Under the pieces are notes generated by a model. It did not search any database. It had not been told where the DNA came from and saw only the letters and a program-made list of their open reading frames with translations. A program made the translations under genes and the position numbers. Positions 22,810-57,744 of a stretch of 64,000 bases of DNA are shown piece by piece. Origin of the DNA: Candidatus Micrarchaeota archaeon (GTDB taxonomy: Archaea; Micrarchaeota; Micrarchaeia; Norongarragalinales; Norongarragalinaceae); NCBI GenBank assembly GCA_013360305.1, contig JABWCK010000001.1:17209-81208 (forward strand), given 5' to 3'. The stretch's first letter is position 1. Each line of letters starts with the position of its first letter.

Positions 22810-22934
22810 CGGGCCCAGGGGGATTTGGACCCCCGACATTTCGATTTCTTTCAAAAATTTAGGAAAGTTTTGATGCAACTTTTCCTAAAAGTTGCTAAGA
22901 GTCGAACGCTCTGGCCAAACTGAGCTATGGGCCC
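22810..22934 (-). tRNA. tRNA-Lys (CTT) with a ~50-nt intron at the canonical 37/38 position
   Basis: Minus strand GGGCCCA-TA-GCTC-AGTTTGGCCA-GAGC-G-TTCGA-CTCTTA[intron ~50 nt]A-TCGAA-ATGTC-GGGGG-TCCAAAT-CCCCC-TGGGCCC-G; all four stems pair; anticodon CTT. Confidence 0.7.
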
Positions 22935-29332: not shown

Positions 29333-32002
29333 ATGAATTTAAGCAAAGAAATTATTGACTTATTGAAAACCAAGGGCTTTGATGACTTTAGCGAAGCCCA
29401 GAAGCAAGCAATTCCCCTCATTAAAGACAAGCACGACGTATTGGTGATTGCTCCAACTGGTTCAGGCAAAACCGAAGCAGCCGTATTACCAATACTCGAC
29501 TCTATTCTAGAAAAGAAAAAGAAAGGAGAAGCAGTACTAGGCATTCAAGCACTATACATTACTCCTCTTCGTGCATTGAATCGAGACATGCTGCTTAGGT
29601 TGAACTTTTGGTGTGACTTACTAGGGATAACTATCGGAGTACGCCACGGAGATACTTCTTCTTCTGAACGAGCCAAGCAAAGAGATTTACCACCTAATTT
29701 TTTGATTACTACTCCCGAAACACTCGAGTCGTTGTTAATTGCTCCAAAATTGTCCGATTACTTGAAGAACGTTGAATTCGTTGTTGTTGATGAAGTGCAT
29801 GAGCTAGTCGACTCGAAGAGGGGCATTCAATTAAGCGTTGCTTTACAAAGACTAAAACAAAAAACTAGTTTTCAAACAATCGGTTTGTCTGCTACTGTGG
29901 GCGACGAAAAACTGGTTTCAAGATTCTTAAGCGATACCGCAAAAACCGTAAAAATTGGTTTGCCTAAAAAAATTCTTTTTTCCGTAGAATTGCCAACCAA
30001 GTCAAAAAAATCTTACTTAGGCTTAAGCAATGAAACTAATTCCAAACTAGGTAGAATAATCGACTTGATTTTAACTCACAATAGGTCTTTAATTTTTGTT
30101 AATACTCGATACACTGCAGAAAGTTTGGCGTCGTTGTTAATGCAGATTCCAGATGCTAAAGACTCGATTGCAGTGCATCATTCTTCACTATCCAAGGAAA
30201 GCCGTTTGGAAGTAGAGGAAGAATTCAAGAAAAACGCTTCAAAACTAAAAGCAATAATTTGCACTTCAAGCCTAGAATTAGGAATAGATGTCGGTGCGAT
30301 TGATTTAGTAATACAATACGTTTCTCCCCGTCAAGCTTCTCGTTTGCTTCAAAGAGTTGGTCGAAGCGGCCACAAACTAACCGGCGTGCCCAAGGGAATA
30401 ATTGTAGCTACTGACGCAATGGATGCGTTGGAAGCTGCTGCTTTAACCCACAAAGCAACTCTGGGTAGGTTGGAAGAATTATTGTACGAAGCAAAACCTT
30501 ATGACATTTTAATCCACCAACTAGCTGGTTTAGCTTTAGACTACGAGTCAATCACTAAAACTAAAGCGTTAGAAATAATTCAAAAAGCACTACCCTTCGT
30601 TAACTTGTCCATGGAAGAAGTAACTGCAGCATTAGAATTCATGCAGCAATTAAGAATAATCATCCTGACCCCGACCGGCTTCGTAAAAACCAGCCGCACT
30701 AAGTGGTATTATTACGAAAACGTTTCAATGATTCCCGACGACAAAAAGTATTTCGTTAAAAATTATTCCACTCGCAAAAACGTTGGAGTATTAGACGAAG
30801 CATTCGTTTCTGAATACTTACAAGAAGGAAAAACGTTTATTACTCGCGGAAAAGCATGGAAAGTCGTTTCAATTGAAGACAACGAGTTGATTGTAGAACA
30901 AGCTGAAGATTATACTGCCGCAGTTCCAGACTGGGTCGGTCAAGAAATACCTGTAGAAGAAGACACGGCACAACTAGTATTATCCTTCTTCCAAGGCAAA
31001 AACCAAGACGTATTGAAAGAATACTGCGACGAGCCGGCTTTGAAAAGCATTGAAAAATTATTGAAAAAACAAGCTGAATACTTCACTCCAGAAAAAGTAG
31101 TAATAGAATTCAACGGAGACGCCGCGTTGATGCACTCGTTTGCAGGAAATAAGGCAAACGAAGCACTCGCTAGAATATTCGGCGCGTTCTTTTCATCTGC
31201 ATTAGGTTCGGGAGTTAGAACCAACTCGAACACGTATGGGGTTTTCTTTGAATTTCCACAACCCGTTTCTTTAGAAAAACTATCAACGCTTATTGAAACT
31301 GCTTCAAAATCAAACGTGGAAGTCGTGCTAGAAAAAGCATTACTAGAAACCTCTTTGTACCGAAGGTTATTCGTTCACAATGCTAAAAGAATGGGCGCGA
31401 TAAAAAAAGACGCGGATTATTCCTCGATTAGCTTAAAACGTTTAGTCAAAGCATTTCAAGGCAGCATAGTTGAAGAAGAAGCCTTGAAGGAATTAAAACA
31501 CGAGTATTTTGATTTAGCTTCTGCTAAAAAGTGCCTGAGTAAAGAAAAACAATTTTTAGTAGTAAAAAACTGGTCGCCTTTAGCACAAGCGTTCTTTTCA
31601 TTCGGAGGATTTACTGAATTATTTGTTCCTGCTGACCCGACGAGTCAAGTTACTGAAGCATTCAAGAAAAGTTTAGAAGAAAAAACAGTTCGATTGAAGT
31701 GTTTGTACTGCAATAAAACTTTCGCTTATGCTTTGTCTTCAAGCGAACAACCTGCTTGTTTTTATTGCAATTCAAAAAGACTAACTCTAGAAAAAGCAAA
31801 AGGCAACGACGCTGAAAGAATAGGTTCTTTAGTTTCGTCTTATGGCAAGAACGCGTTGATTGCTTTAGAAACTTACGGCGTAGGCAGCGAAAACGCGGCG
31901 CGAGTCTTATCCCGGCTGCACAAGAATGAAGACGAGTTTTATGTGGATTTGCTTGAAGCACAAAAAACCTTCATGCGCACTAAAAAATACTGGCGGGTTT
32001 AA
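29333..32002 (+). CDS. Lhr-like DExH-box ATP-dependent helicase with C-terminal zinc ribbon
   Basis: Walker A APTGSGKTEAA; DEVH box (VVVDEVHELVD); motif III GLSATVGD; motif VI QRVGRSGH; C-terminal CLYCNK...CFYCNSK; 889 aa. Confidence 0.65.
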   Translation: MNLSKEIIDLLKTKGFDDFSEAQKQAIPLIKDKHDVLVIAPTGSGKTEAAVLPILDSILEKKKKGEAVLGIQALYITPLRALNRDMLLRLNFWCDLLGITIGVRHGDTSSSERAKQRDLPPNFLITTPETLESLLIAPKLSDYLKNVEFVVVDEVHELVDSKRGIQLSVALQRLKQKTSFQTIGLSATVGDEKLVSRFLSDTAKTVKIGLPKKILFSVELPTKSKKSYLGLSNETNSKLGRIIDLILTHNRSLIFVNTRYTAESLASLLMQIPDAKDSIAVHHSSLSKESRLEVEEEFKKNASKLKAIICTSSLELGIDVGAIDLVIQYVSPRQASRLLQRVGRSGHKLTGVPKGIIVATDAMDALEAAALTHKATLGRLEELLYEAKPYDILIHQLAGLALDYESITKTKALEIIQKALPFVNLSMEEVTAALEFMQQLRIIILTPTGFVKTSRTKWYYYENVSMIPDDKKYFVKNYSTRKNVGVLDEAFVSEYLQEGKTFITRGKAWKVVSIEDNELIVEQAEDYTAAVPDWVGQEIPVEEDTAQLVLSFFQGKNQDVLKEYCDEPALKSIEKLLKKQAEYFTPEKVVIEFNGDAALMHSFAGNKANEALARIFGAFFSSALGSGVRTNSNTYGVFFEFPQPVSLEKLSTLIETASKSNVEVVLEKALLETSLYRRLFVHNAKRMGAIKKDADYSSISLKRLVKAFQGSIVEEEALKELKHEYFDLASAKKCLSKEKQFLVVKNWSPLAQAFFSFGGFTELFVPADPTSQVTEAFKKSLEEKTVRLKCLYCNKTFAYALSSSEQPACFYCNSKRLTLEKAKGNDAERIGSLVSSYGKNALIALETYGVGSENAARVLSRLHKNEDEFYVDLLEAQKTFMRTKKYWRV

Positions 32003-32117: not shown

Positions 32118-32591
32118 TTAAATTATCCTCGGCTTGTTGGGTTTTTTATCCTCGAAAACACCTTCAAGTGCGTTAGGGTTTTGTTCAAAAAATTTAGCCG
32201 CTTCCTTGTTCAACGGATCCCTCGGGTTGGGGTGTTTCAATAAGTGTTCCAATGCCTTAACTACCGAAACCACTGTTTGGTTCTCGCTCCAATCATTAAC
32301 TAATTGAATGCAAACAATTCCATCTTCTGCCCGAATATTTGGGTGAAATATTGGCGTAAGCCAGTAAACCATTATTCCTCCCGGGTAAGGATAACTGCGC
32401 AACAAGTCTATTTCTGCAGTGTGGGATTCTCTTTTCATCAAAGAATTATTTTGCTTATGCAACGCCGGCCCGTGCACGGTTACTACGTACTTGTTTTTTT
32501 CAGGATTAACTTCAAACTTGAATCCCGATGAAAGCATTTGATTATATTCGCTTTGCAAGCGGCGGTTGTATATTTCCGAAGGTAATTCCAT
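32118..32591 (-). CDS. Ubiquitin-conjugating enzyme E2 (UBC fold)
   Basis: NRRLQSEYNQML...YPYPGGIMVYWLTPIFHPNIRAEDGIVCIQLVNDWSENQTVVSVVKALEHLLKHPNPRDPLN: HPN motif, catalytic Cys, the Trp and the PNP.DPL motif of eukaryotic UBC domains; 157 aa. Confidence 0.85.
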   Translation of the reverse strand: MELPSEIYNRRLQSEYNQMLSSGFKFEVNPEKNKYVVTVHGPALHKQNNSLMKRESHTAEIDLLRSYPYPGGIMVYWLTPIFHPNIRAEDGIVCIQLVNDWSENQTVVSVVKALEHLLKHPNPRDPLNKEAAKFFEQNPNALEGVFEDKKPNKPRII

Positions 32592-32855
32592 TCAAAGCGC
32601 CTCTTTAACAGACTGAATTCCTTCCCTGCTCAACCCACGAATAGCTATGTAGTGATAATTAGCCTGCATTCCAATGCTTTCTGCCCGCGCGTTAGAAAAG
32701 TTTTGTTGAAAAAACGAATTCAAACTCTTTATCGTCGGTTCTGGAGATGGGTTGTTGATGGTGTTGAGTTTGATTATTATTTCAGTATCCGTGAATTCGG
32801 CCTTCAAAGAATAAGGTTTTAGTTTGGAAGCTAGTTTCTCGAAAAACTCGTTCAT
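32592..32855 (-). CDS. Hypothetical 87-aa protein translationally coupled to the E2 gene
   Basis: Stop abuts the E2 start codon (32592/32591); no Cys, no motif. Confidence 0.4.
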   Translation of the reverse strand: MNEFFEKLASKLKPYSLKAEFTDTEIIIKLNTINNPSPEPTIKSLNSFFQQNFSNARAESIGMQANYHYIAIRGLSREGIQSVKEAL

Positions 32856-32890
32856 GTCATTACTTACTCAAGAAAAGAATAAACGCTTTT

Positions 32891-33736
32891 CTACAACCAG
32901 CCTTTCTTCTTCATCCACAAGGCGGCGGTTAGTGTTACTATTATTTGGCCGACAATTACTGCCGGATACGCCCATTCGATTGCTAATTCGGGCATGTATA
33001 TGAAATTCATTCCAAAGTGTCCTGCTATGATGTTTGGAATCATTAAAACAATCGTTATTCCTGTCAATCTTTTTACTACGAGGTTCAATTCTTCAATTCT
33101 CTTGTTAGTTTCTTTAGTTTGTTTAGAGTCAATTTCCCACTGAATGTCCCTCAACTGGCTTAAATGGTTTCTACAACGGTCGAGTAATTGTTGCGCTTTA
33201 GTGTAAACCAAGTCGTAATCGTAAGCAACCAATCCCGTGTTTACTTGTTTTATTTTTCTTTCTTCCAAACTAGTCAACAATATTACGAAGTCTTCGATTC
33301 TGTTAGTGAGTTTTCTTAATTTTACCGTCGCGTCTTCTACGATTTCTGCTTTCAAACCTTTTTCTATTACGTCAATGTTTTCGTCTATTTGGTTGAATGT
33401 TTGCTGATAGTTTTTGACTATTGCTCTGAGCGTAAGCAAGCTCAAAACCGAACTCTCTCCGTATTGTTTTTGCATTGAAATGCGAAACATTTTGTAATCA
33501 TTGTCGTTGAATTGCTTGTTTTCCGAATAAAGCAAGGCGTTTTTCTCGCTGAGCAAAAGAATATTGTTTTTTGGTTCATTAGTTCCGTTATAGTCGCGCA
33601 CGCTGATGATTACGTAATCTTCGTAAGACTCTAAGAAGACGATGTTTAAACTAAGCAATTCATCCAAGTTTACGGCTACGCCTAGTTCAATAGCTCTTTT
33701 TTTAAAGTCGTCAAAATTAACGAAGGTTTCAATCAT
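32891..33736 (-). CDS. corA: CorA-family divalent-cation (Mg2+/Co2+) transporter
   Basis: C-terminal GMNFIYMPEL plus two TM helices (CorA GMN motif); 281 aa. Confidence 0.65.
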   Translation of the reverse strand: MIETFVNFDDFKKRAIELGVAVNLDELLSLNIVFLESYEDYVIISVRDYNGTNEPKNNILLLSEKNALLYSENKQFNDNDYKMFRISMQKQYGESSVLSLLTLRAIVKNYQQTFNQIDENIDVIEKGLKAEIVEDATVKLRKLTNRIEDFVILLTSLEERKIKQVNTGLVAYDYDLVYTKAQQLLDRCRNHLSQLRDIQWEIDSKQTKETNKRIEELNLVVKRLTGITIVLMIPNIIAGHFGMNFIYMPELAIEWAYPAVIVGQIIVTLTAALWMKKKGWL

Positions 33737-33765: not shown

Positions 33766-34014
33766 TTAAGCTGAGCCCCCTGTTGGATCAGGGATTAATA
33801 GCAATTTAGCTCCTTCTGTCAGACCCGCATCTTGAATCGTGAGCGTCGGTTCGAGTATTTTGTTGTCTTCAGTGGATAAAATAAACCTGTCTTTTAACTG
33901 CAAGTTTTCCATTAATACTTCCAAAACACTTTGGATTGTGAATTCTGGCTCCACTGCCATAGTTATTTCTTTACCTGAAGTAGTTTGAATAATCACGATA
34001 TTAAACTCAGTCAT
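33766..34014 (-). CDS. Ubiquitin homologue (beta-grasp), precursor form with C-terminal GG followed by Ser-Ala
   Basis: IVIIQTTSGKEITMAVEPEFTIQSVLEVLMENLQLKDRFILSTEDNKILEPTLTIQDAGLTEGAKLLLI...TGGSA aligns position by position with eukaryotic ubiquitin ([34 protein letters not shown]...LVLRLRGG); 82 aa. Confidence 0.85.
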   Translation of the reverse strand: MTEFNIVIIQTTSGKEITMAVEPEFTIQSVLEVLMENLQLKDRFILSTEDNKILEPTLTIQDAGLTEGAKLLLIPDPTGGSA

Positions 34015-34076
34015 TTGCTTTTCACCACTTTTTATTTTCGGAAAGAGATTTTATATTAGTTTTGAGTGGTTCTTAT
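34015..34076. promoter_or_regulatory. Divergent AT-rich promoter region between the ubiquitin gene and the GG-protein/JAMM/RING operon
   Basis: TTTTTATTTT and TTTTATATTA TATA-like boxes in a 62-bp divergent spacer. Confidence 0.3.
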
Positions 34077-34724
34077 ATGCCTGCGGATTCAGATGATTTG
34101 AAAGAGTATAGTTTTGCTGAAAGCGATTTCGTTGCTAAGAAAAAAAAGCCAGAGCCCTTCGTCAGTGGAGCCGTTGAACGTTCCGTTGACGCTGAACCCA
34201 AACCAGATTTAAAACCCGCCGCCCCTAAAGAAATTACTCCCCAGCCAAAAATCGTTTCACCCACTAGACCTGCAGTTTTCGTTACCGGCATTGTACAAAA
34301 AGAAAAAACCCCAAAAGAAGAGCCAAAGACTGAAGACTCTCGAGTAATCGATTCATTACCTAAAGAAGAGCCTTTGAAAGTAACTGAAGAAGAAAAGCCA
34401 AAGAAATTATTTGAAGAAAAAAAACCAGAAGTAAAAAACGTCAAGCAACCCGAAAAAAAACCAGCCGTAAAGAAAACCGTTGACTGGAGCTTGTTTGATG
34501 AAGCTGTTTCTAAAGGAAAGACGCCCAACCAAGCCGTAGAACTAGCTACTGACAAAGACGTAGTAAAACAAATACGCCAAGACGCTTCAGCTGATATTTT
34601 ACCTGTCCAAAGAAGCGTCGACCGAGCATTAAACAAGGAAGCTCAAGCGCAGGAAGCCATTCGAAAATATGAAGAAAACAAAGCAAAGAAAAAGGGTTTT
34701 CTTCAAAAACTCTTTGGCGGTTAA
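34077..34724 (+). CDS. Lys/Glu/Pro-rich intrinsically disordered protein ending in Gly-Gly
   Basis: Start taken at ATG 34077 (ORF track uses TTG 34062); KPEPxxK/EEKP low-complexity; terminal ...KKKGFLQKLFGG-stop; the opposite-strand ORF (34073-34636) is an S/F/G antisense artefact. Confidence 0.45.
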   Translation: MPADSDDLKEYSFAESDFVAKKKKPEPFVSGAVERSVDAEPKPDLKPAAPKEITPQPKIVSPTRPAVFVTGIVQKEKTPKEEPKTEDSRVIDSLPKEEPLKVTEEEKPKKLFEEKKPEVKNVKQPEKKPAVKKTVDWSLFDEAVSKGKTPNQAVELATDKDVVKQIRQDASADILPVQRSVDRALNKEAQAQEAIRKYEENKAKKKGFLQKLFGG

Positions 34725-34726
34725 CC

Positions 34727-35158
34727 TTGTACGAAATATACTTCGAACCAACTCCATTCAAGCAAGCATTAAGCCATTTTAAACGCGAAGCAGGAAAAAA
34801 CCTTGAAGCACTAGGCTTATTGCTCGGAGAAGTGCGAATTCACAACGGCAGGAAGTACGTGGTAGTAAAGGAATACGTTACTGCAGAAAACCACGCGTCA
34901 AGCATTTCGGTTCGATTTACTCAAAACGCATTCAAAGAACTGTCTCCAAAACTAAGCGACAAAATAATCGTTGGATGGATTCATTCACATCCTTCGTATG
35001 GTTGTTTCTTGTCCAGCACTGACGTGCGCACACAACAAGCCTTCTTCAACGAAGACTATAACTTTGCATTCGTAATAGATCCCGTTCAAAATGATTACCG
35101 CGCGTTTAGAGTAAAAAACGGACGGTATTATGAAGTTTCATTCGCAGTAATTGATTAA
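34727..35158 (+). CDS. JAMM/MPN+ metalloprotease (Rpn11/JAB1-like deubiquitinase/Ub-precursor peptidase)
   Basis: EALGLLLGE (conserved Glu) and GWIHSHPSYGCFLSSTD (HxHx7Sx2D zinc motif); only a TTG start is available in-frame; 143 aa. Confidence 0.8.
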   Translation: MYEIYFEPTPFKQALSHFKREAGKNLEALGLLLGEVRIHNGRKYVVVKEYVTAENHASSISVRFTQNAFKELSPKLSDKIIVGWIHSHPSYGCFLSSTDVRTQQAFFNEDYNFAFVIDPVQNDYRAFRVKNGRYYEVSFAVID

Positions 35159-35863
35159 ATGAAGAAAACAAAACGCAAGGAAAAAATCAAGGGCTTCGAC
35201 AAAAAATTGTTCGAAGTAGTTTCTAGCGGAGTCACTAACAAGAAAATCATTCTCGAATCCCTAGTCGTAGACGAAGGAGAATTCGACAAACGCGTTTCTT
35301 CACTGATTAAAAAGAAATTATTCGTCTACTCCGGCGAAGACTTGAAACTAGGCATTAACGCATTCGACTACTTTAAGGAAAAACCCAAGAAGACAAAACC
35401 AAAAGAAGAATCCTTAATCGAAAAATTATCTATTCCAGAAAACCCTATCGTCGTACAAACTCCTCCAAAAATCGAGCCTGAAACGAAAGAAGAACCAAGA
35501 ATAGACTTAGATTCACTACTACGTTCGGGCGCTCCAAAAGAAAACGTAATGCAAAAAACCCTGGAAGACAAGGTACTCGTTGTTTCAAGTCCACAACAAT
35601 TATCTGCCGCTGTTGGGAAGCCATTAATGACTGAAGGAGAAGAAGCCTGCGAATTATGCAAAGCAAACTTCAAGTTAAACGTCAAAAACACTTCCGACTC
35701 CAAATACGGCCACTGCTTCTGTGGGGCTGCGTATCATAAGGATTGTTATTCTGCATTACTTAATGGAACAACTCGCTGCGTTCGCTGCGGAAGAAAACTA
35801 GAACTAGTATTAGACAAACAAACAGAACAAGCACTCAAAGGACTACGCGGAGTATTCGATTAA
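35159..35863 (+). CDS. C4HC3 RING/PHD-like zinc-finger protein (candidate E3), N-terminal wH-like region
   Basis: C-terminus CELC-x18-CFC-x4-H-x2-C-x10-CVRC = C-x2-C...C-x-C-x4-H-x2-C...C-x2-C treble-clef pattern; ATG follows the JAMM stop directly (TAAATG); 234 aa. Confidence 0.5.
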   Translation: MKKTKRKEKIKGFDKKLFEVVSSGVTNKKIILESLVVDEGEFDKRVSSLIKKKLFVYSGEDLKLGINAFDYFKEKPKKTKPKEESLIEKLSIPENPIVVQTPPKIEPETKEEPRIDLDSLLRSGAPKENVMQKTLEDKVLVVSSPQQLSAAVGKPLMTEGEEACELCKANFKLNVKNTSDSKYGHCFCGAAYHKDCYSALLNGTTRCVRCGRKLELVLDKQTEQALKGLRGVFD

Positions 35864-36594
35864 TGCAGCGGACAGTCTCTTCTTTGAGAAACCTCGTAAA
35901 TCACTACTTCATTCTTTAACCCATTAAAGAAAGCGTATTTTCCAACTAACGCAGGCAATCCGTGAACTAGCTTGATGAATTCGTTTACTTGCATTGAAGC
36001 AATAACGCTAGTCGTCGTCGCTAAAGCAGGCATTTTAGAACTCATAAAGTCCAAAACTTCTCCCACGCAAGAATATTTTTTCCACAAAATCTTGTAATCG
36101 CTCTTAGTCAAAGAACACTCTAAGCACGCAGTCTTGTCAACTACTTGAATTTTACCGTTAAACGCGTTAGTTCCACCGTCAATTAAAATTATTTTCCCGA
36201 AACACTTAGCATTCAAATGAATCCTGGCAGCTAAGTTGTCAAGACAAGAAAAACAATAATCAAAACCCGCAAAGAATTCCTCACTCAATTCTTCCAACCG
36301 CTTGTCAACTGCAGTAATCTCGCTGGAATTGTTTAGTTTTTCCGCCTTCTCCTTCAAAACAAAACACTTCTTCTTCCCTACATCTTCAAGGGAAAAAAAC
36401 ACGCACCTATTCAAATTAACTTCCGCAATCTCGTCATAATCAACAATAGTAATCTTTCCTACTCCTAGTTGTACTAGTAACTTGACTGCTTCATTGCCTA
36501 ACGCTCCCGCTCCCAAGACTAAAACGTTCTTTGAACTAATTTTTTCCTGGCTCCAACCTTGAATTCTTTTTTGTCGATCGAAAACGTCAGTCAC
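35860..36594 (-). CDS. Ubiquitin-activating E1-like enzyme (ThiF/MoeB/UBA family)
   Basis: RQKRIQGWSQEKISSKNVLVLGAGALGNEAVKLLVQLGVGKITIVDYDEIAEVNLNRCVFF (E1 adenylation-domain signature); candidate catalytic/zinc Cys (KTACLEC); 244 aa; convergently overlaps the RING gene stop. Confidence 0.75.
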   Translation of the reverse strand: MTDVFDRQKRIQGWSQEKISSKNVLVLGAGALGNEAVKLLVQLGVGKITIVDYDEIAEVNLNRCVFFSLEDVGKKKCFVLKEKAEKLNNSSEITAVDKRLEELSEEFFAGFDYCFSCLDNLAARIHLNAKCFGKIILIDGGTNAFNGKIQVVDKTACLECSLTKSDYKILWKKYSCVGEVLDFMSSKMPALATTTSVIASMQVNEFIKLVHGLPALVGKYAFFNGLKNEVVIYEVSQRRDCPLH

Positions 36595-36630
36595 AATAAT
36601 CTTTTACTATCTCAAAGCATAAAACTAGTT

Positions 36631-37353
36631 ATGCCGCTTATTGTTTGCTCTAGTCAAAACGAGCTAGGCCTCAACGCTTTCAATTTGCTACAAGAAAAAA
36701 AAGCAAACTGCTTGCTGTTAGAAGAAAACGCTTTGTACTCGAAAAAACAATTCGAAACCGATTTGGTAGTGTATTGTTATACTCACAAGAGTTCCTCGAA
36801 CGAGCCTTGTTTTACTACCCACAGCCAAGGCAATTTTAGTGAAGCAAAACTAGGCGGGGAAGAAAAAACCCTAGCAAACACGTCAGGCACTGCCGTGAAA
36901 CTAGCTTACACCGAATTACTCAAACAAACCAACTTGCCTGTTTTTTTGGAAGCTACTCACCACGGACCAACCTCGCTTCATTCTCCCTCATTATTTATAG
37001 AGTTAGGTGCTACTCCGAAGCAATGGACTGACTTAGAATTACTAAATAACTTAACTAGTGCTTGCATTTCCGTAGCTGAAAAATTCAAGCCTACGCAAAA
37101 AGCGGTTTTAGGCTTTGGAGGCACTCATTACTGCAACGCCTTCCTGGAACTAGCAAAAAAAGAAAGTTTTTCGTTTATTTGCTCAAAACACTACCTGGAT
37201 TTTATTGATGCAGAAATGATTGAACAAATGGTTTCCAAAACAATCGAGCCAGTAACAAAAGCATTCGTCGACAAAAAAGGCTGTTCGGGCGAGCAAAGGC
37301 GAAAAATAATCTCGCTACTTGAAGAAAAAGCAATCGAATGCGAACTAGTTTAG
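36631..37353 (+). CDS. Archaeal-type D-aminoacyl-tRNA deacylase (DtdA)-like protein
   Basis: MPLIVCSSQNELGLNAFNLL N-terminus and LEATHHGPTS motif resemble the DtdA family; start taken at the internal Met because the longer ORF would overlap the E1 N-terminus. Confidence 0.4.
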   Translation: MPLIVCSSQNELGLNAFNLLQEKKANCLLLEENALYSKKQFETDLVVYCYTHKSSSNEPCFTTHSQGNFSEAKLGGEEKTLANTSGTAVKLAYTELLKQTNLPVFLEATHHGPTSLHSPSLFIELGATPKQWTDLELLNNLTSACISVAEKFKPTQKAVLGFGGTHYCNAFLELAKKESFSFICSKHYLDFIDAEMIEQMVSKTIEPVTKAFVDKKGCSGEQRRKIISLLEEKAIECELV

Positions 37354-38501
37354 TACTCGAATAGTTTTTTCTGGCTAAACAAGTTGCTCTTAGCTAAGTA
37401 TTTTTCCAACGGGTTCTTCAACCTCGTTCTCAATTCATCCTTTAATTCCTTAATTGAAGAAAAACGCATTGGCTGGTTTTCAAACGCGTGCTTTACGTTC
37501 TCACGCACTTCCCAAACCCCGACCGGAATGCTGTATTCCTTACTAATTTCTCGAATCACGCACACTCTAGCCTGCCGTCCTTGTTTTCGCAAAGCGTCGC
37601 AGACAGAAAATCGCGAAGCATAAAACCCGCCACCCTCGCTTTCAGCGTACTTAGTACGGCCCTCAAACGGTTCATGCTCGTAAGCGAAGTCGTGACCCTC
37701 CCACGCCTCGAATTGCTCGAATTCATATCTGCCCGGCAAGAGAATTACTTCGAAATGGTTAAACAAGTAAGTATTCGAATACAATAAAATCGAGTTATTC
37801 TCTGGAAACTCCTTGATTTCTTTCAGTAAATAGTCTGCAACCAAGTTGTCGACTGCAGTAATACTCCACTTGGTAGGCACCATTTTCTTCTTATTGCCTA
37901 AAATCCCTGCAGAAAACACTTTTTGAAGATAATAATAATCAAACCTGCCGACTACTTCCGGCAACGCCTCTCGAACAGTCAAGTTTTCTTGAGAAAGAGA
38001 ATCAATCTTCCTCGGAATAACCGGGTTTCCTGCTAAATCCATTTTCTCTAATTCCGCCGAAGGACCCATCGGCTGGCTCTTGTTAAAGAAAGAAACGTTG
38101 AAACTAGGCAGTTTTTTGAAAGAAACCTCTAAATCAATGGTTTTTTCACTCATTACAGAGTCCTTTAAATCCCCCAAAAACCTTTCCCGAGAACCAAAAA
38201 CACTAGTTTTCTTCATTCCCCTCGCTAAATTAGCTCTATATTCAATAATTTTATCAAAAGTCAAGCCATACCACTGGTCAGGCGAGTCCAAAAGACGAGC
38301 ATCCACTTCAGAATCCAGTCCCACAAGGGGGCCAACAAACACGTTAGGATAACCGTATTCTCCAACGAATAAATTAGGCGGAGTAGGGCCGAAAATATTT
38401 TTACCAATCTTCGGTATTTTTACATCAATTTTTTTCTTCTTAACCCACTCTAAAGGCGTTTCTCCAGACCAATCACTATTCATTTCATCAAAATAATTCA
38501 A
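37350..38501 (-). CDS. Nre-family (NreA-like) putative DNA-repair protein
   Basis: FGPTPPNLFVGEYGYPNVFVGPLVGLD resembles the conserved N-terminal motif of archaeal Nre proteins; 383 aa. Confidence 0.45.
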   Translation of the reverse strand: MNYFDEMNSDWSGETPLEWVKKKKIDVKIPKIGKNIFGPTPPNLFVGEYGYPNVFVGPLVGLDSEVDARLLDSPDQWYGLTFDKIIEYRANLARGMKKTSVFGSRERFLGDLKDSVMSEKTIDLEVSFKKLPSFNVSFFNKSQPMGPSAELEKMDLAGNPVIPRKIDSLSQENLTVREALPEVVGRFDYYYLQKVFSAGILGNKKKMVPTKWSITAVDNLVADYLLKEIKEFPENNSILLYSNTYLFNHFEVILLPGRYEFEQFEAWEGHDFAYEHEPFEGRTKYAESEGGGFYASRFSVCDALRKQGRQARVCVIREISKEYSIPVGVWEVRENVKHAFENQPMRFSSIKELKDELRTRLKNPLEKYLAKSNLFSQKKLFEY

Positions 38502-57628: not shown

Positions 57629-57744
57629 GGGTCCGTAGCTCAGCCTGGATAGAGCAATTGCCTTCTAAACTTTTTTGTTAAAAAGTTTAATCAAAAAAGC
57701 ATGAGGAAAGCAAGAGGTCGGGGGTCCGAATCCCCCCGGACCCG
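57629..57744 (+). tRNA. tRNA-Arg (TCT) with a ~41-nt intron at position 37/38
   Basis: GGGTCCG-TA-GCTC-AGCCTGGATA-GAGC-A-ATTGC-CTTCTA[intron]A-GCAAG-AGGTC-GGGGG-TCCGAAT-CCCCC-CGGACCC-G; upstream TTTTTATCTATAT TATA-like box; downstream oligo-T (TTTTATTTTATT). Confidence 0.7.

What the first reader, a model, noticed from the sequence alone, without database searches (positions are those of the whole stretch)
33766..35158. Ubiquitin encoded as a precursor (…TGG-SA) next to a JAMM peptidase: a built-in maturation step
The ubiquitin homologue ends in GG followed by two extra residues (Ser-Ala), so the conjugation-competent C-terminal Gly must be exposed by proteolysis. A JAMM/MPN+ metalloprotease with complete zinc-ligand motifs is encoded 0.7 kb away on the divergent operon. 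In the one archaeal system reconstituted so far, an Rpn11-like JAMM performs exactly this pro-Ub processing in addition to deconjugation. The JAMM ORF has no in-frame ATG and would have to start at TTG 34727. This suggests translational coupling to, or read-through from, the upstream GG-ending protein gene.
Basis: partly seen in the sequence, partly recalled or inferred. Interest (0 to 1): 0.6.

Follow-up and report, generated by a model that had tools for sequence, protein, structure and literature searches.

The report
Micrarchaeal ubiquitin cassette with two-residue tail
A small DPANN archaeon carries a complete eukaryote-like ubiquitin toolkit, and its ubiquitin has two extra end residues that the neighbouring Rpn11-like protease probably trims, but this tail is a recent one-genome accident, not a designed maturation step.

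Summary
An 82-aa ubiquitin-fold protein (33766-34014, minus strand) ends PDPTGG-Ser-Ala. An intact Rpn11-like JAMM (34727-35158) lies 0.7 kb away, has no ATG and starts at TTG.

The locus is a ubiquitin cassette: Ub, E2, minimal E1, RING-like protein and JAMM. It belongs to a Candidatus Micrarchaeota MAG and is syntenic in 58 Micrarchaeota genomes.

The "built-in maturation step" is only partly supported:
- 49 of 58 species genomes and 55 of 75 database orthologues stop exactly at GG.
- Tails vary in length and sequence and arose at least 5 times on terminal branches.
- The sister genome has TAA where this one has TCA.
- The tail sits at the edge of a CorA+orf87 insertion unique to this genome.
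- The JAMM is present whether or not there is a tail, so its conserved job is probably deconjugation. Trimming by it is inferred from Caldiarchaeum Rpn11.

The TTG start is supported: orthologues start at the homologous position (32 ATG, 11 TTG, 9 GTG). Read-through from the upstream gene is excluded because the frames differ.

The upstream protein's terminal GG belongs to a MinD-type membrane-targeting sequence (KGFLQKLFGG), not a ubiquitin-like diglycine.

The parts
33766..34014 (-). Ubiquitin homologue, 82-aa precursor. Mature part is residues 1-80 (33775-34014), ending in the invariant PDPTGG. The Ser-Ala tail is at 33769-33774 and the TAA stop at 33766-33768.
   Evidence: ORF and sequence. 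AF2 beta-grasp model, pLDDT 85. Foldseek matches ubiquitin/SUMO at TM ~0.8 with 28-30% identity to ubiquitin, and CsUb (6fnn_C) at 24%. 75 orthologues have an invariant PDPTGG.
34062..34724 (+). K/E/P-rich, probably disordered protein (220 aa from TTG 34062, 215 aa from ATG 34077). It is a conserved member of the cassette. Its C-terminal 10 residues KGFLQKLFGG (34692-34721) resemble the MinD membrane-targeting sequence.
   Evidence: No Pfam hit. An ORF occupies the same position in nearly all 52 relatives, with a conserved C-terminal K.[IL]K..[LF]G[FLM]x. The tail is 8/10 identical to the E. coli MinD MTS KGFLKRLFGG (PMC5471200).
34716..34729 (+). Junction GGC GGT TAA CC TTG. The last two Gly codons of the upstream gene form a degenerate Shine-Dalgarno-like GGCGGT. 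The stop follows, then a 2-nt spacer, then the TTG start of the JAMM.
   Evidence: Sequence. 16 of 52 relatives carry a strict GGTG/GGAGG core within 18 nt of the JAMM start, against ~2% background in the window. The median stop-to-start gap is 15 nt, and 25 of 52 gaps are 10 nt or less.
34727..35158 (+). Rpn11-like JAMM/MPN+ metalloprotease, 143 aa, TTG start. Catalytic residues: Glu27 (34805-34807), His86/His88 (34982-34990), Ser96 (35012-35014), Asp99 (35021-35023).
   Evidence: Pfam JAB 5e-13. Best PDB sequence hits are Rpn11 (1e-12), CSN5 (1e-9) and CsRpn11 (6e-9). AF2 model pLDDT 96.8. Foldseek top hits are Rpn11:Ub 5u4p_B (TM 0.83) and CsRpn11:CsUb 6fnn_A (TM 0.79). Catalytic residues are conserved in at least 95% of 53 orthologues.
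35159..35863 (+). 234-aa protein with a C-terminal RING-like C4HC3 cross-brace zinc finger (residues 164-211, 35648-35791). Candidate E3. Its ATG directly abuts the JAMM stop codon.
   Evidence: The pattern C-x2-C...H-C-x-C...H-x2-C...C-x2-C is conserved in ~50 orthologues. Pfam zf-RING_2 reaches only E=0.034, below threshold.
35860..36594 (-). Minimal E1-like adenylating enzyme, 244 aa, ThiF domain only. Invariant CxxC (C157, C160), C176 and C241-x2-H244.
   Evidence: Pfam ThiF 1.7e-50. The best PDB hits are the eukaryotic UBA1 active adenylation domain (7e-25), ahead of ThiF (1.4e-19). Cys conservation.
32118..32591 (-). E2 ubiquitin-conjugating enzyme, 157 aa. HPN motif at residues 83-85 (32337-32345); catalytic Cys94 (32310-32312).
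   Evidence: Pfam UQ_con 3.9e-19. Best PDB hits are eukaryotic E2s at 4e-12. HPN and Cys94 are invariant in 43 orthologues.
32592..33736 (-). Lineage-specific insertion of CorA (32891-33736) and an 87-aa ORF (32592-32855) between Ub and E2. Its left edge is immediately after the Gly-Gly codons of Ub and its right edge immediately before the E2 ATG.
   Evidence: CorA Pfam 9.5e-24. In all other loci Ub is followed by E2, with no CorA or orf87 between them. Junction comparison with the sister locus L001.

Best explanation
The locus is a compact eukaryote-type ubiquitylation cassette in a Candidatus Micrarchaeota (DPANN) genome. It holds:
- Ub
- a minimal ThiF-size E1
- a UBC-fold E2
- a RING-like zinc-finger protein
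- an Rpn11-like JAMM
- a disordered partner protein with a MinD-like membrane-targeting tail

The cassette is conserved and syntenic across the phylum.

In this one genome the ancestral stop codon directly after Gly-Gly has been lost. This happened either by TAA>TCA or as the junction of a CorA+orf87 insertion that begins exactly there. Ub is therefore made with two extra residues, Ser-Ala.

E1 enzymes adenylate the free carboxylate of the last Gly, so the tail must be removed. The most likely agent is the cassette's own JAMM, which cleaves after Gly80 just as Caldiarchaeum Rpn11 cleaves its 9-residue propeptide.

The conserved, selected role of the JAMM is deconjugation (isopeptidase). Its ability to cut linear GG-X bonds makes occasional stop-codon slips tolerable, which is why tails appear sporadically. 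The predominance of tail-less genes shows that selection favours the directly mature form.

The JAMM is translated from TTG 34727 as the second gene of a tightly packed KEP-JAMM-RING operon, with 2-nt and 0-nt spacers. Initiation is probably by termination-reinitiation or a weak SD, not by read-through.

Shown here: anatomy, folds, catalytic residues, synteny, tail distribution, start-codon conservation.
Inferred: the cleavage itself, the coupling, and the origin of the tail.
For: - Organism and annotation.
- Domains.
- Ub fold.
- The JAMM is Rpn11-like by sequence and fold, with an Ins-1-like hairpin (strands 55-57 and 62-64).
- Catalytic residues are conserved in 53 JAMMs, 43 E1s and 43 E2s.
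- Synteny Nre-DTD2-E1-RING-JAMM-[KEP]-Ub-E2-Lhr holds in most of 58 loci.
- Tails: 55/75 proteins and 49/58 genomes have none. The rest are 1-26 aa and non-homologous.
- The root state is tail-less with at least 5 gains. The sister L001 is tail-less, with TAA at the position of TCA.
- The tail lies at the edge of the insertion.
- The JAMM is present in every locus with enough flank, with or without a tail.
- The KR tail is shared by four different protein clusters and the S tail by four, so tails are inherited and tolerated.
- An independent assembly is identical.
- Literature: the CsUb 9-aa propeptide is cut precisely after GG by CsRpn11; pro-Ub is refractory to E1; the 148-aa JAMM core alone is active; a small P1' residue is favoured (PMC5654768, PMC6043591). 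Ser is small.
- Distant relatives encode Ub fused in frame to E2 (PDPTGG|TKY...) in an operon with a TPR-JAB and an E1. GG-specific endoproteolysis would be needed there to release free Ub.
- Start codon.
- Frame offsets.
Against: - No biochemical evidence exists for this protein pair.
- Caldiarchaeum Rpn11 is only ~24-26% identical to this JAMM in structural alignment.
- Some Micrarchaeota tails begin with bulky or charged residues (K, Y, H, L, F). At P1' these blocked CsRpn11, so specificity may differ or some tails may be unprocessed.
- A 2-residue tail could also be removed by an unrelated carboxypeptidase.
- Only 64 kb of the genome was seen, so other JAMMs or DUBs elsewhere cannot be excluded.
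- SD motifs are not generally enriched in this window (8 of 51 long ORFs), and GGCGGT is a poor SD. The initiation mechanism at the TTG is therefore uncertain.
Confidence: 0.6

Rival explanations
1. One reading: the Ser-Ala extension is a selected propeptide. Ub activation would then be gated by JAMM processing as a built-in regulatory maturation step.
For: Caldiarchaeum encodes a 9-aa propeptide and its pro-Ub is inert towards E1. Eukaryotic ubiquitin genes are all precursors (general knowledge). Ub::E2 fusions exist in distant relatives.
Against: The tail is private to this genome. The sister genome and 84% of species genomes have none. Tails share no sequence or length. They arose at least 5 times on terminal branches. 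This one coincides with an insertion junction. The predominance of tail-less genes implies selection for the mature form.
Confidence: 0.1
2. The tail is removed, but by another peptidase such as a cytosolic carboxypeptidase or a second JAMM elsewhere in the genome. The cassette JAMM acts only on isopeptide conjugates.
For: Only two residues need to go. The window covers only 64 kb. Several relatives' tails begin with residues that blocked CsRpn11 at P1'.
Against: This is the only JAMM motif inside a substantial ORF in the window. Rpn11-type enzymes, including CsRpn11, cut linear GG-X bonds. The long tails of 14-26 aa in relatives are unlikely carboxypeptidase substrates.
Confidence: 0.12
3. 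The tail is not removed. Ub in this organism cannot be activated, and the cassette is at an early stage of decay after the CorA insertion.
For: The operon is disrupted by a 1.17-kb insertion between Ub and E2. DPANN genomes undergo gene loss (general knowledge).
Against: All six genes are intact with every catalytic or invariant residue present. Ub keeps all 22 family-invariant positions. The KR and S tails persist across diverged lineages, which argues that tails are compatible with function.
Confidence: 0.08
4. The Ser-Ala tail is a sequencing or assembly error in the stop codon.
For: A single A>C change (TAA>TCA) would create it. The protein cluster has one member.
Against: A separate Logan assembly of SRR8490538 is 100% identical over 2391 nt. 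Sixteen to 27% of orthologues from many projects carry tails, some shared between distinct sequences. The flank after GG is not homologous to the sister's spacer, so this is more than one base change.
Confidence: 0.05
5. The JAMM is made as a fusion with the upstream protein by -1 ribosomal frameshifting at the in-frame slippery heptamer G GGT TTT (34694-34700). This would explain the missing ATG.
For: The heptamer is in the correct phase. The -1 frame is open from 34673 into the JAMM.
Against: The JAMM N-terminus M-[FY]-[ED]-[VA]-Y carries its own start codon at or near the homologous position in all 52 relatives scored. The frame offset between the two genes is random among relatives (17/17/18), and the sister L001 is in the +1 frame. 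A heptamer of this form in a 17-codon stretch is expected by chance at a few per cent (my estimate). The MTS would be destroyed by the shift.
Confidence: 0.03
6. The system is a SAMP/MoaD-type sulfur-carrier pair (Ubl + E1 + desampylase), not a protein-conjugation system.
For: The E1 is ThiF-size with CxxC motifs. JGI auto-annotated two orthologues as molybdopterin converting factor small subunit.
Against: An E2 with HPN and catalytic Cys, and a RING-like protein, are conserved in the cassette. The Ubl matches ubiquitin/SUMO, not MoaD/ThiS. The JAMM matches Rpn11/CSN5, not JAMM1. The E1 scores higher to UBA1 than to ThiF/MoeB.
Confidence: 0.03

Closest known systems
Caldiarchaeum subterraneum ubiquitin operon (CsUb, E1, E2, srfp RING E3) with CsRpn11 (PMC5654768; PMC6043591)
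   Same: Both have a ubiquitin-fold modifier with C-terminal GG, a UBC-type E2, a small Cys/His zinc-finger protein and an Rpn11-like JAMM encoded beside the operon. Both encode Ub with residues beyond GG. The JAMM core of ~145 aa equals the minimal active CsRpn11(delta149-202).
   Different: - The tail is 2 aa (SA), not 9 aa (CGEPIRRAA), and is absent from most orthologues in this phylum.
- The E1 is 244 aa (ThiF domain only), without the inserted Cys domain or the C-terminal Ubl domain described for Cluster I/II E1s.
- The JAMM has no C-terminal helical extension.
- The cassette holds an extra conserved disordered protein with a MinD-like MTS.
- The host is a DPANN archaeon.
- Sequence identity is low: Ub ~24%, JAMM ~24-26%.
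Eukaryotic ubiquitin precursors (poly-Ub with a terminal extra residue, Ub-ribosomal fusions) processed by DUBs; Rpn11/CSN5/AMSH JAMM isopeptidases
   Same: The modifier must be cut after GG before E1 activation. The JAMM here is closest in sequence and fold to Rpn11. The terminal extra residues of poly-Ub genes vary between species, as they do here (general knowledge).
   Different: In eukaryotes every Ub gene is a precursor and processing is done mostly by Cys-protease DUBs. Rpn11 is locked in the proteasome lid. Here the precursor state is exceptional and the free-standing JAMM is the only candidate.
Archaeal SAMP / JAMM1 (HvJAMM1, PfJAMM1) systems
   Same: Beta-grasp modifier with GG, ThiF-type E1, and a JAMM that both matures precursors and deconjugates.
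   Different: SAMP systems have no E2 or E3, their modifiers are MoaD/ThiS-like, and JAMM1 lies in a distant cluster. Here an E2 and a RING-like protein are present and the modifier and JAMM are ubiquitin- and Rpn11-like.
Bacterial Ubl-conjugation defence operons (BilABCD, CBASS Cap2/Cap3, Bub)
   Same: Ubl + E1 + E2 + JAB gene sets in one cluster.
   Different: No PADLOC model matches the Ub or the E2, and the BilC match is only E=2e-3. The cassette is a fixed, syntenic chromosomal feature flanked by housekeeping genes across a phylum, not a mobile defence island.
MinD C-terminal membrane-targeting sequence (E. coli KGFLKRLFGG)
   Same: The upstream protein ends KGFLQKLFGG (8/10 identical). 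Relatives end in comparable basic amphipathic G-F/L motifs.
   Different: The rest of the protein is not a ParA/MinD ATPase. It is a K/E/P-rich low-complexity protein with no known domain. Membrane binding is untested.

Membership tests
Archaeal eukaryote-like ubiquitylation cassette (Caldiarchaeum/Asgard type) | Beta-grasp ubiquitin-like modifier with a C-terminal Gly-Gly | tested here: met
   AF2 model pLDDT 85 with the beta-grasp order of elements. Foldseek matches ubiquitin/SUMO/CsUb at TM ~0.8. PDPTGG is invariant in 75 orthologues.
Archaeal eukaryote-like ubiquitylation cassette (Caldiarchaeum/Asgard type) | UBC-fold E2 with HPN motif and catalytic Cys | tested here: met
   Pfam UQ_con 3.9e-19, above cut-off. 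Eukaryotic E2s are the best PDB hits. H83-P-N and C94 are invariant in 43 orthologues.
Archaeal eukaryote-like ubiquitylation cassette (Caldiarchaeum/Asgard type) | E1 of the ThiF/UBA family with adenylation domain and a catalytic Cys | tested here: inconclusive
   ThiF 1.7e-50. The best PDB hit is the UBA1 adenylation domain. Cys176, after the CxxC, is invariant and is a candidate catalytic residue, but its role is not shown.
Archaeal eukaryote-like ubiquitylation cassette (Caldiarchaeum/Asgard type) | E1 carries a C-terminal ubiquitin-like (UFD) domain, frequent in Cluster I/II E1s of PMC5654768 | tested here: not met
   The protein is 244 aa and the ThiF profile covers residues 13-242, leaving no room for an extra domain. 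This resembles the Cluster III/bacterial-type E1 architecture.
Archaeal eukaryote-like ubiquitylation cassette (Caldiarchaeum/Asgard type) | Small RING-finger E3 | tested here: inconclusive
   Eight Cys/His ligands in a C4HC3 cross-brace spacing are conserved in ~50 orthologues. Pfam zf-RING_2 gives E=0.034 and Prok-RING_1 gives 0.13, both below cut-off.
Archaeal eukaryote-like ubiquitylation cassette (Caldiarchaeum/Asgard type) | Rpn11-like JAMM with E...HxH-x7-S-x2-D encoded beside the operon | tested here: met
Archaeal eukaryote-like ubiquitylation cassette (Caldiarchaeum/Asgard type) | JAMM cleaves the Ub precursor exactly after Gly-Gly and removes Ub from conjugates | not testable with these tools
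   Needs recombinant protein and mass spectrometry. Shown only for CsRpn11.
Obligate pro-ubiquitin (precursor as a family trait) | Orthologues consistently encode residues beyond Gly-Gly | tested here: not met
   55 of 75 clusters and 49 of 58 species genomes end at GG. The tails are non-homologous. The inferred ancestral state is tail-less.
SAMP/JAMM1 sulfur-carrier-type systems | MoaD/ThiS-like modifier, no E2 or E3, JAMM1-type protease | tested here: not met
   E2 and RING-like genes are conserved in the cassette. The modifier and JAMM match ubiquitin and Rpn11 respectively.
Bacterial Bil/CBASS/Bub Ubl defence operons | Components match the defence-system profiles (BilA-D, Cap2/Cap3) | tested here: not met
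   PADLOC gives no hit for Ub, E2, the RING-like or the KEP protein. JAB/BilC score only E~1e-3. The E1 matches only the generic adenylation part of the E1-E2 fusions.
MinD-type amphipathic membrane-targeting sequence (upstream protein) | C-terminal basic amphipathic motif like KGFLKRLFGG | tested here: met
   KGFLQKLFGG is 8/10 identical to the E. coli MinD MTS quoted in PMC5471200. A related motif ends the protein in most relatives. Actual membrane binding is not testable here.

The most novel reading that the evidence does not exclude
The complete eukaryote-like ubiquitylation cassette is a core, vertically inherited feature of the DPANN phylum Micrarchaeota. I found no report of it in the searchable literature.

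It always includes a disordered partner protein anchored to the membrane by a MinD-like helix. It is always embedded between the DNA-repair-type genes Nre and Lhr. This would point to ubiquitylation acting at the cell membrane, or at the host-symbiont interface, in ultra-small archaea. It would also provide a second archaeal lineage, outside Aigarchaeota and Asgard, whose JAMM and E1 score closest to eukaryotic Rpn11 and UBA1.
Probability: 0.3. Interest if true: 0.65.

Novelty: new member of a known kind. Interest (0 to 1): 0.38.

Why it matters
The specific claim, pro-ubiquitin plus a processing JAMM, repeats a mechanism already shown in Caldiarchaeum. Here it concerns a non-conserved two-residue slip, so on its own it is ordinary.

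The comparative picture has more value:
- It gives a natural experiment. Some 16-27% of orthologues carry random tails while all keep the JAMM. This implies that the free-standing Rpn11-like enzyme cuts linear GG-X bonds generally.
- It documents a minimal, easily synthesised six-gene ubiquitin system: 80-aa Ub, 244-aa E1, 157-aa E2 and 143-aa JAMM.
- The system comes from mesophilic DPANN archaea, outside the lineages usually discussed for the origin of eukaryotic ubiquitylation.
- It includes an unexpected membrane-targeted partner protein.

Tried and rejected
- Read-through or frameshift fusion of the upstream protein and the JAMM. The genes are in different frames. A phase-correct slippery heptamer G GGT TTT (34694-34700) exists. 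I rejected the idea because every orthologue has its own start codon, the frame offsets are random (17/17/18), and the sister genome is in the +1 frame.
- The upstream protein as a second GG-ending modifier. Rejected: no beta-grasp, no Pfam hit, only 2 of 53 end in GG, and the motif is a MinD-like MTS.
- A strong Shine-Dalgarno for the TTG. The window shows only a degenerate GGCGGT. SD cores are not enriched before long ORFs in this window (8 of 51), although 16 of 52 orthologous JAMM genes have one. Left as weak evidence.
- Bacterial defence-system membership: PADLOC was negative.
- RING membership by Pfam: below threshold.
- Literature linking Micrarchaeota or DPANN to a ubiquitin system: nothing relevant came up in five searches and two Micrarchaeota genomics papers. 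Subscription-journal papers are not covered.
- 16S rRNA for the anti-SD sequence: none in the window.
- One search failed on a too-short term.
Full report
**1. What is in the sequence**

The window is from a Candidatus Micrarchaeota (DPANN) metagenome-assembled genome. The exact products of six local ORFs are NCBI proteins NUN11070-NUN11077 on a 107.9-kb contig.

At the stated coordinates, ORF 33766-34014 (minus strand) encodes an 82-aa protein ending LLLIPDPTGG-SA-stop.

On the plus strand, divergent from it, three tightly packed genes follow:
- a K/E/P-rich ORF (34062 or ATG 34077 to 34724) ending KGFLQKLFGG-TAA;
- two bases later, TTG 34727 opens a 143-aa JAMM ORF (to 35158);
- the JAMM stop abuts the ATG of a 234-aa protein (35159-35863) with a Cys/His-rich C-terminus.

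A 244-aa ThiF-family E1 (35860-36594, minus strand) converges on that gene. Downstream of Ub on the minus strand lie CorA, an 87-aa ORF and a UBC-type E2 (32118-32591).

Pfam scores:
- UQ_con 3.9e-19
- JAB 5e-13
- ThiF 1.7e-50
- CorA 9.5e-24
- Ub: TUG-UBL1 (2.1e-05) just above its Pfam cutoff; Rad60-SLD, ubiquitin and the other Ubl families below theirs

The JAMM ORF has no Met codon. An in-frame TGA lies at 34670, and there is no ATG, GTG or TTG before 34727. Later candidate starts would remove the catalytic Glu27.

**2. Identity of the parts**

Ubiquitin:
- The AF2 model (pLDDT 85) is a beta-grasp.
- Foldseek matches ubiquitin and SUMO at TM ~0.8, with 28-30% identity to ubiquitin. It also matches Caldiarchaeum CsUb.
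- A family profile finds eukaryotic ubiquitin as the best PDB sequence matches, though weakly per domain.

JAMM:
- It carries E27, H86-x-H88, S96-x2-D99.
- Its best PDB sequence hits are yeast and human Rpn11 (1e-12), CSN5 (1e-9), CsRpn11 (6e-9) and AMSH (1e-7). SAMP-type JAMM1 is not among the matches.
- The AF2 model (pLDDT 96.8) superposes best on Rpn11 bound to ubiquitin (5u4p_B, TM 0.83) and on the CsRpn11:CsUb complex (6fnn_A, TM 0.79). It has a beta-hairpin where Ins-1 lies.

E2 and E1:
- The E2 matches eukaryotic E2s (4e-12). Its HPN motif and Cys94 are invariant.
- The E1 scores higher to the UBA1 active adenylation domain (7e-25) than to ThiF or MoeB (1e-19 and 1e-17). It is only ThiF-sized. 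C157-x2-C160, C176 and C241-x2-H244 are invariant.

RING-like protein:
- The 234-aa protein has a conserved C-x2-C...HC-x-C...H-x2-C...C-x2-C pattern (C4HC3 cross-brace spacing) in about 50 orthologues.
- RING Pfam models stay below threshold.

PADLOC defence models do not recognise the Ub or the E2.

**3. Comparative evidence**

A scan of species-representative genomes returned 58 loci, nearly all labelled Micrarchaeota or its order Norongarragalinales. Nearly all show the order Nre, DTD2, E1, RING-like, JAMM, variable ORF, Ub, E2, Lhr. The window differs only by CorA+orf87 inserted between Ub and E2.

Catalytic residues are conserved in at least 95% of 53 JAMM orthologues.

An exhaustive profile search of 1.8 billion representatives shows a tight family. 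After it come eukaryotic poly-ubiquitins and a few distant archaeal-type relatives.

**4. The tail**

- Among 75 homologous protein clusters, 55 end exactly at PDPTGG. The other 20 carry KR (x4), S (x4), N, AR, HL, LF, LI, RKH or unrelated tails of 6-25 aa.
- Among the 58 species genomes, 49 have a stop codon directly after GG and 9 have tails of 1-26 aa.
- On a neighbour-joining tree of E1+JAMM+E2+Ub, the inferred root is tail-less. At least five independent gains are needed, all on terminal or near-terminal branches.
- The window's sister, L001 (Ub 83% identical), reads GGT GGT TAA where the window reads GGG GGC TCA GCT TAA.
- In L001 a 32-nt spacer leads from that stop to the E2 ATG. In the window everything between the Gly-Gly codons and the E2 ATG is replaced by TCAGCT-TAA, CorA and orf87. 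The tail therefore sits exactly at the left junction of a lineage-specific insertion. Either a TAA>TCA change or the insertion itself created it.
- It is not an assembly artefact. An independent Logan assembly of SRR8490538 is identical over 2391 nt.
- The JAMM is present in every locus with enough flank, whether or not Ub has a tail.

From this I infer three things:
- The tail is a recent, private, non-selected state.
- Selection generally keeps the stop at GG. Otherwise stop-loss would accumulate, because reversion needs a specific nonsense mutation.
- Tails are nevertheless tolerated long enough to be shared by diverged sequences (KR, S). This is what one expects if a GG-specific peptidase is always present.

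**5. Mechanism**

In Caldiarchaeum the 87-aa pro-Ub carries CGEPIRRAA after GG and is refractory to E1. CsRpn11 cuts it precisely after GG and also deconjugates. The 148-aa JAMM core suffices, small P1' residues speed cleavage, and bulky or acidic ones block it (PMC5654768, PMC6043591).

The window's JAMM is a 143-aa core of the same kind, and the P1' residue is Ser. The most likely course is therefore this: the JAMM removes Ser-Ala, E1 adenylates Gly80, and E2 with the RING-like protein conjugates.

This step is inferred, not shown. Processing cannot be the JAMM's conserved purpose, because about four in five orthologous Ub genes need none. Deconjugation is the parsimonious conserved role.

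Additional support that GG-X endoproteolysis belongs to this wider clade comes from distant relatives. In these, Ub is fused in frame to the E2 (…IPDPTGG|TKYPEG…FHPNV…C) inside an operon of TPR-JAB, ThiF E1 and Ub::E2.

**6. The TTG start and coupling**

The JAMM N-terminus M-[FY]-[ED]-[VA]-Y is conserved. In 52 relatives a start codon lies at or within a few codons of the homologous position: 32 ATG, 11 TTG and 9 GTG. L001 has TTG at the identical position. NCBI's gene call uses the same TTG. The TTG start is therefore well supported.

Stop-to-start gaps to the upstream ORF have a median of 15 nt, and 25 of 52 are 10 nt or less. A strict SD core lies within 18 nt in 16 of 52 relatives, against about 2% background in the window.

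In the window the last two Gly codons (GGC GGT) form only a degenerate SD. SD motifs are not generally enriched in this window. Coupling by termination-reinitiation is therefore plausible but unproven.

Read-through is excluded because the JAMM is in the -1 frame relative to the upstream ORF. A phase-correct slippery heptamer G GGT TTT (34694-34700) could in principle give a -1 fusion. However, frame offsets among relatives are random (17/17/18) and L001 is in the +1 frame. I rate this at about 3%.

**7. The 'GG-ending' upstream protein**

It has no Pfam match. A counterpart sits between Ub and the JAMM in nearly every relative.

Conserved blocks are:
- an acidic-aromatic D[YW]SL motif;
- (E)QA[SA]RD[IV]LP;
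- a basic helix;
- a C-terminal K.[IL]K..[LF]G[FLM]x-stop.

Only the window and L001 end in GG. The window's KGFLQKLFGG is 8/10 identical to the E. coli MinD membrane-targeting sequence KGFLKRLFGG (PMC5471200). The terminal GG therefore belongs to a probable amphipathic membrane anchor, not a conjugation motif.

**8. Comparison and novelty**

The system works like the Caldiarchaeum/Asgard ubiquitin operon with its Rpn11-like JAMM.

Membership features met:
- Ub fold
- E2
- Rpn11-like JAMM

Inconclusive:
- the RING finger
- the E1 catalytic Cys

Not met:
- a C-terminal Ubl domain on the E1
- the precursor as a family trait

It is not a SAMP/JAMM1 system or a bacterial Bil/CBASS-type system.

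I found no paper in the searchable library that links Micrarchaeota with a ubiquitin system, including two phylum-level genomics papers. That library omits most subscription journals.

Verdict: this is a new member of a known kind. The flagged 'built-in maturation step' is a tolerated accident. The wider cassette, with its minimal size, phylum-wide synteny and membrane-targeted partner, is the more interesting result.

Noticed in passing
window 34062-34724 (+); MTS 34692-34721: The K/E/P-rich ORF between Ub and the JAMM is a conserved cassette member with no known domain. It ends in KGFLQKLFGG, 8/10 identical to the E. coli MinD membrane-targeting sequence. Relatives end in similar basic amphipathic G-[FLM]-x motifs. 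They also share D[YW]SL and QA[SA]RD[IV]LP blocks.
   Followed up: partly
window 32592-33736 (-): CorA (281 aa) and an 87-aa ORF with no Pfam hit are inserted exactly between the Gly-Gly codons of Ub and the ATG of E2. None of the 58 related loci has this insertion. Other relatives have different insertions of 0.3-1.6 kb at the same Ub-E2 spacer.
   Followed up: partly
L059 1-3949 (Logan SRR14876846 contig); proteins P0189, P0190, P0175: Distant relatives encode ubiquitin fused in frame to a UBC E2 (…IPDPTGG|TKYPEG…). The operon reads TPR-JAB, ThiF E1, Ub::E2, then two unknown ORFs. Another relative is a tandem di-Ub with a hydrophobic C-terminal region. The source organism is unknown.
   Followed up: partly
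window 29333-32002 (Lhr), 36559-38501 (DTD2, Nre); L001-L058: The ubiquitin cassette is flanked by Nre and DTD2 on one side and an Lhr-type helicase on the other in most Micrarchaeota loci. Nre and Lhr are DNA-repair-associated families (as far as I know), so a link to DNA-damage handling is conceivable.
   Followed up: no
window 34694-34700 (+): G GGT TTT is a phase-correct -1 slippery heptamer 22 nt before the upstream gene's stop. The -1 frame is open from there into the JAMM ORF. I judged it a chance occurrence because the frame relation is not conserved in relatives.
   Followed up: yes
window 35860-36594 (-): The E1 is only 244 aa (ThiF domain alone, no Cys-insert or UFD). Even so, it scores better against the eukaryotic UBA1 active adenylation domain (7e-25) than against ThiF or MoeB. 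How it recruits the E2 without a UFD is open.
   Followed up: partly
window 34015-34076: The 62-bp divergent spacer between Ub and the upstream ORF holds a TATA-like TTTATATT (34050-34057), about 25 nt before ATG 34077. That ATG may therefore be a leaderless start. On the other strand a perfect GGTGA lies 7 nt before the Ub ATG.
   Followed up: no
window 22810-22934 (-) and 57629-57744 (+): Two Rfam tRNA matches are 125 and 116 nt long and ARAGORN does not call them. They are probably intron-containing archaeal tRNAs.
   Followed up: no
proteins P0142, P0151, P0153: Beyond Micrarchaeota, the next JAMM relatives (~38-43% identity, ~220 aa) come from Methanomassiliicoccales. That order may therefore carry a related Rpn11-like system.
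   Followed up: no
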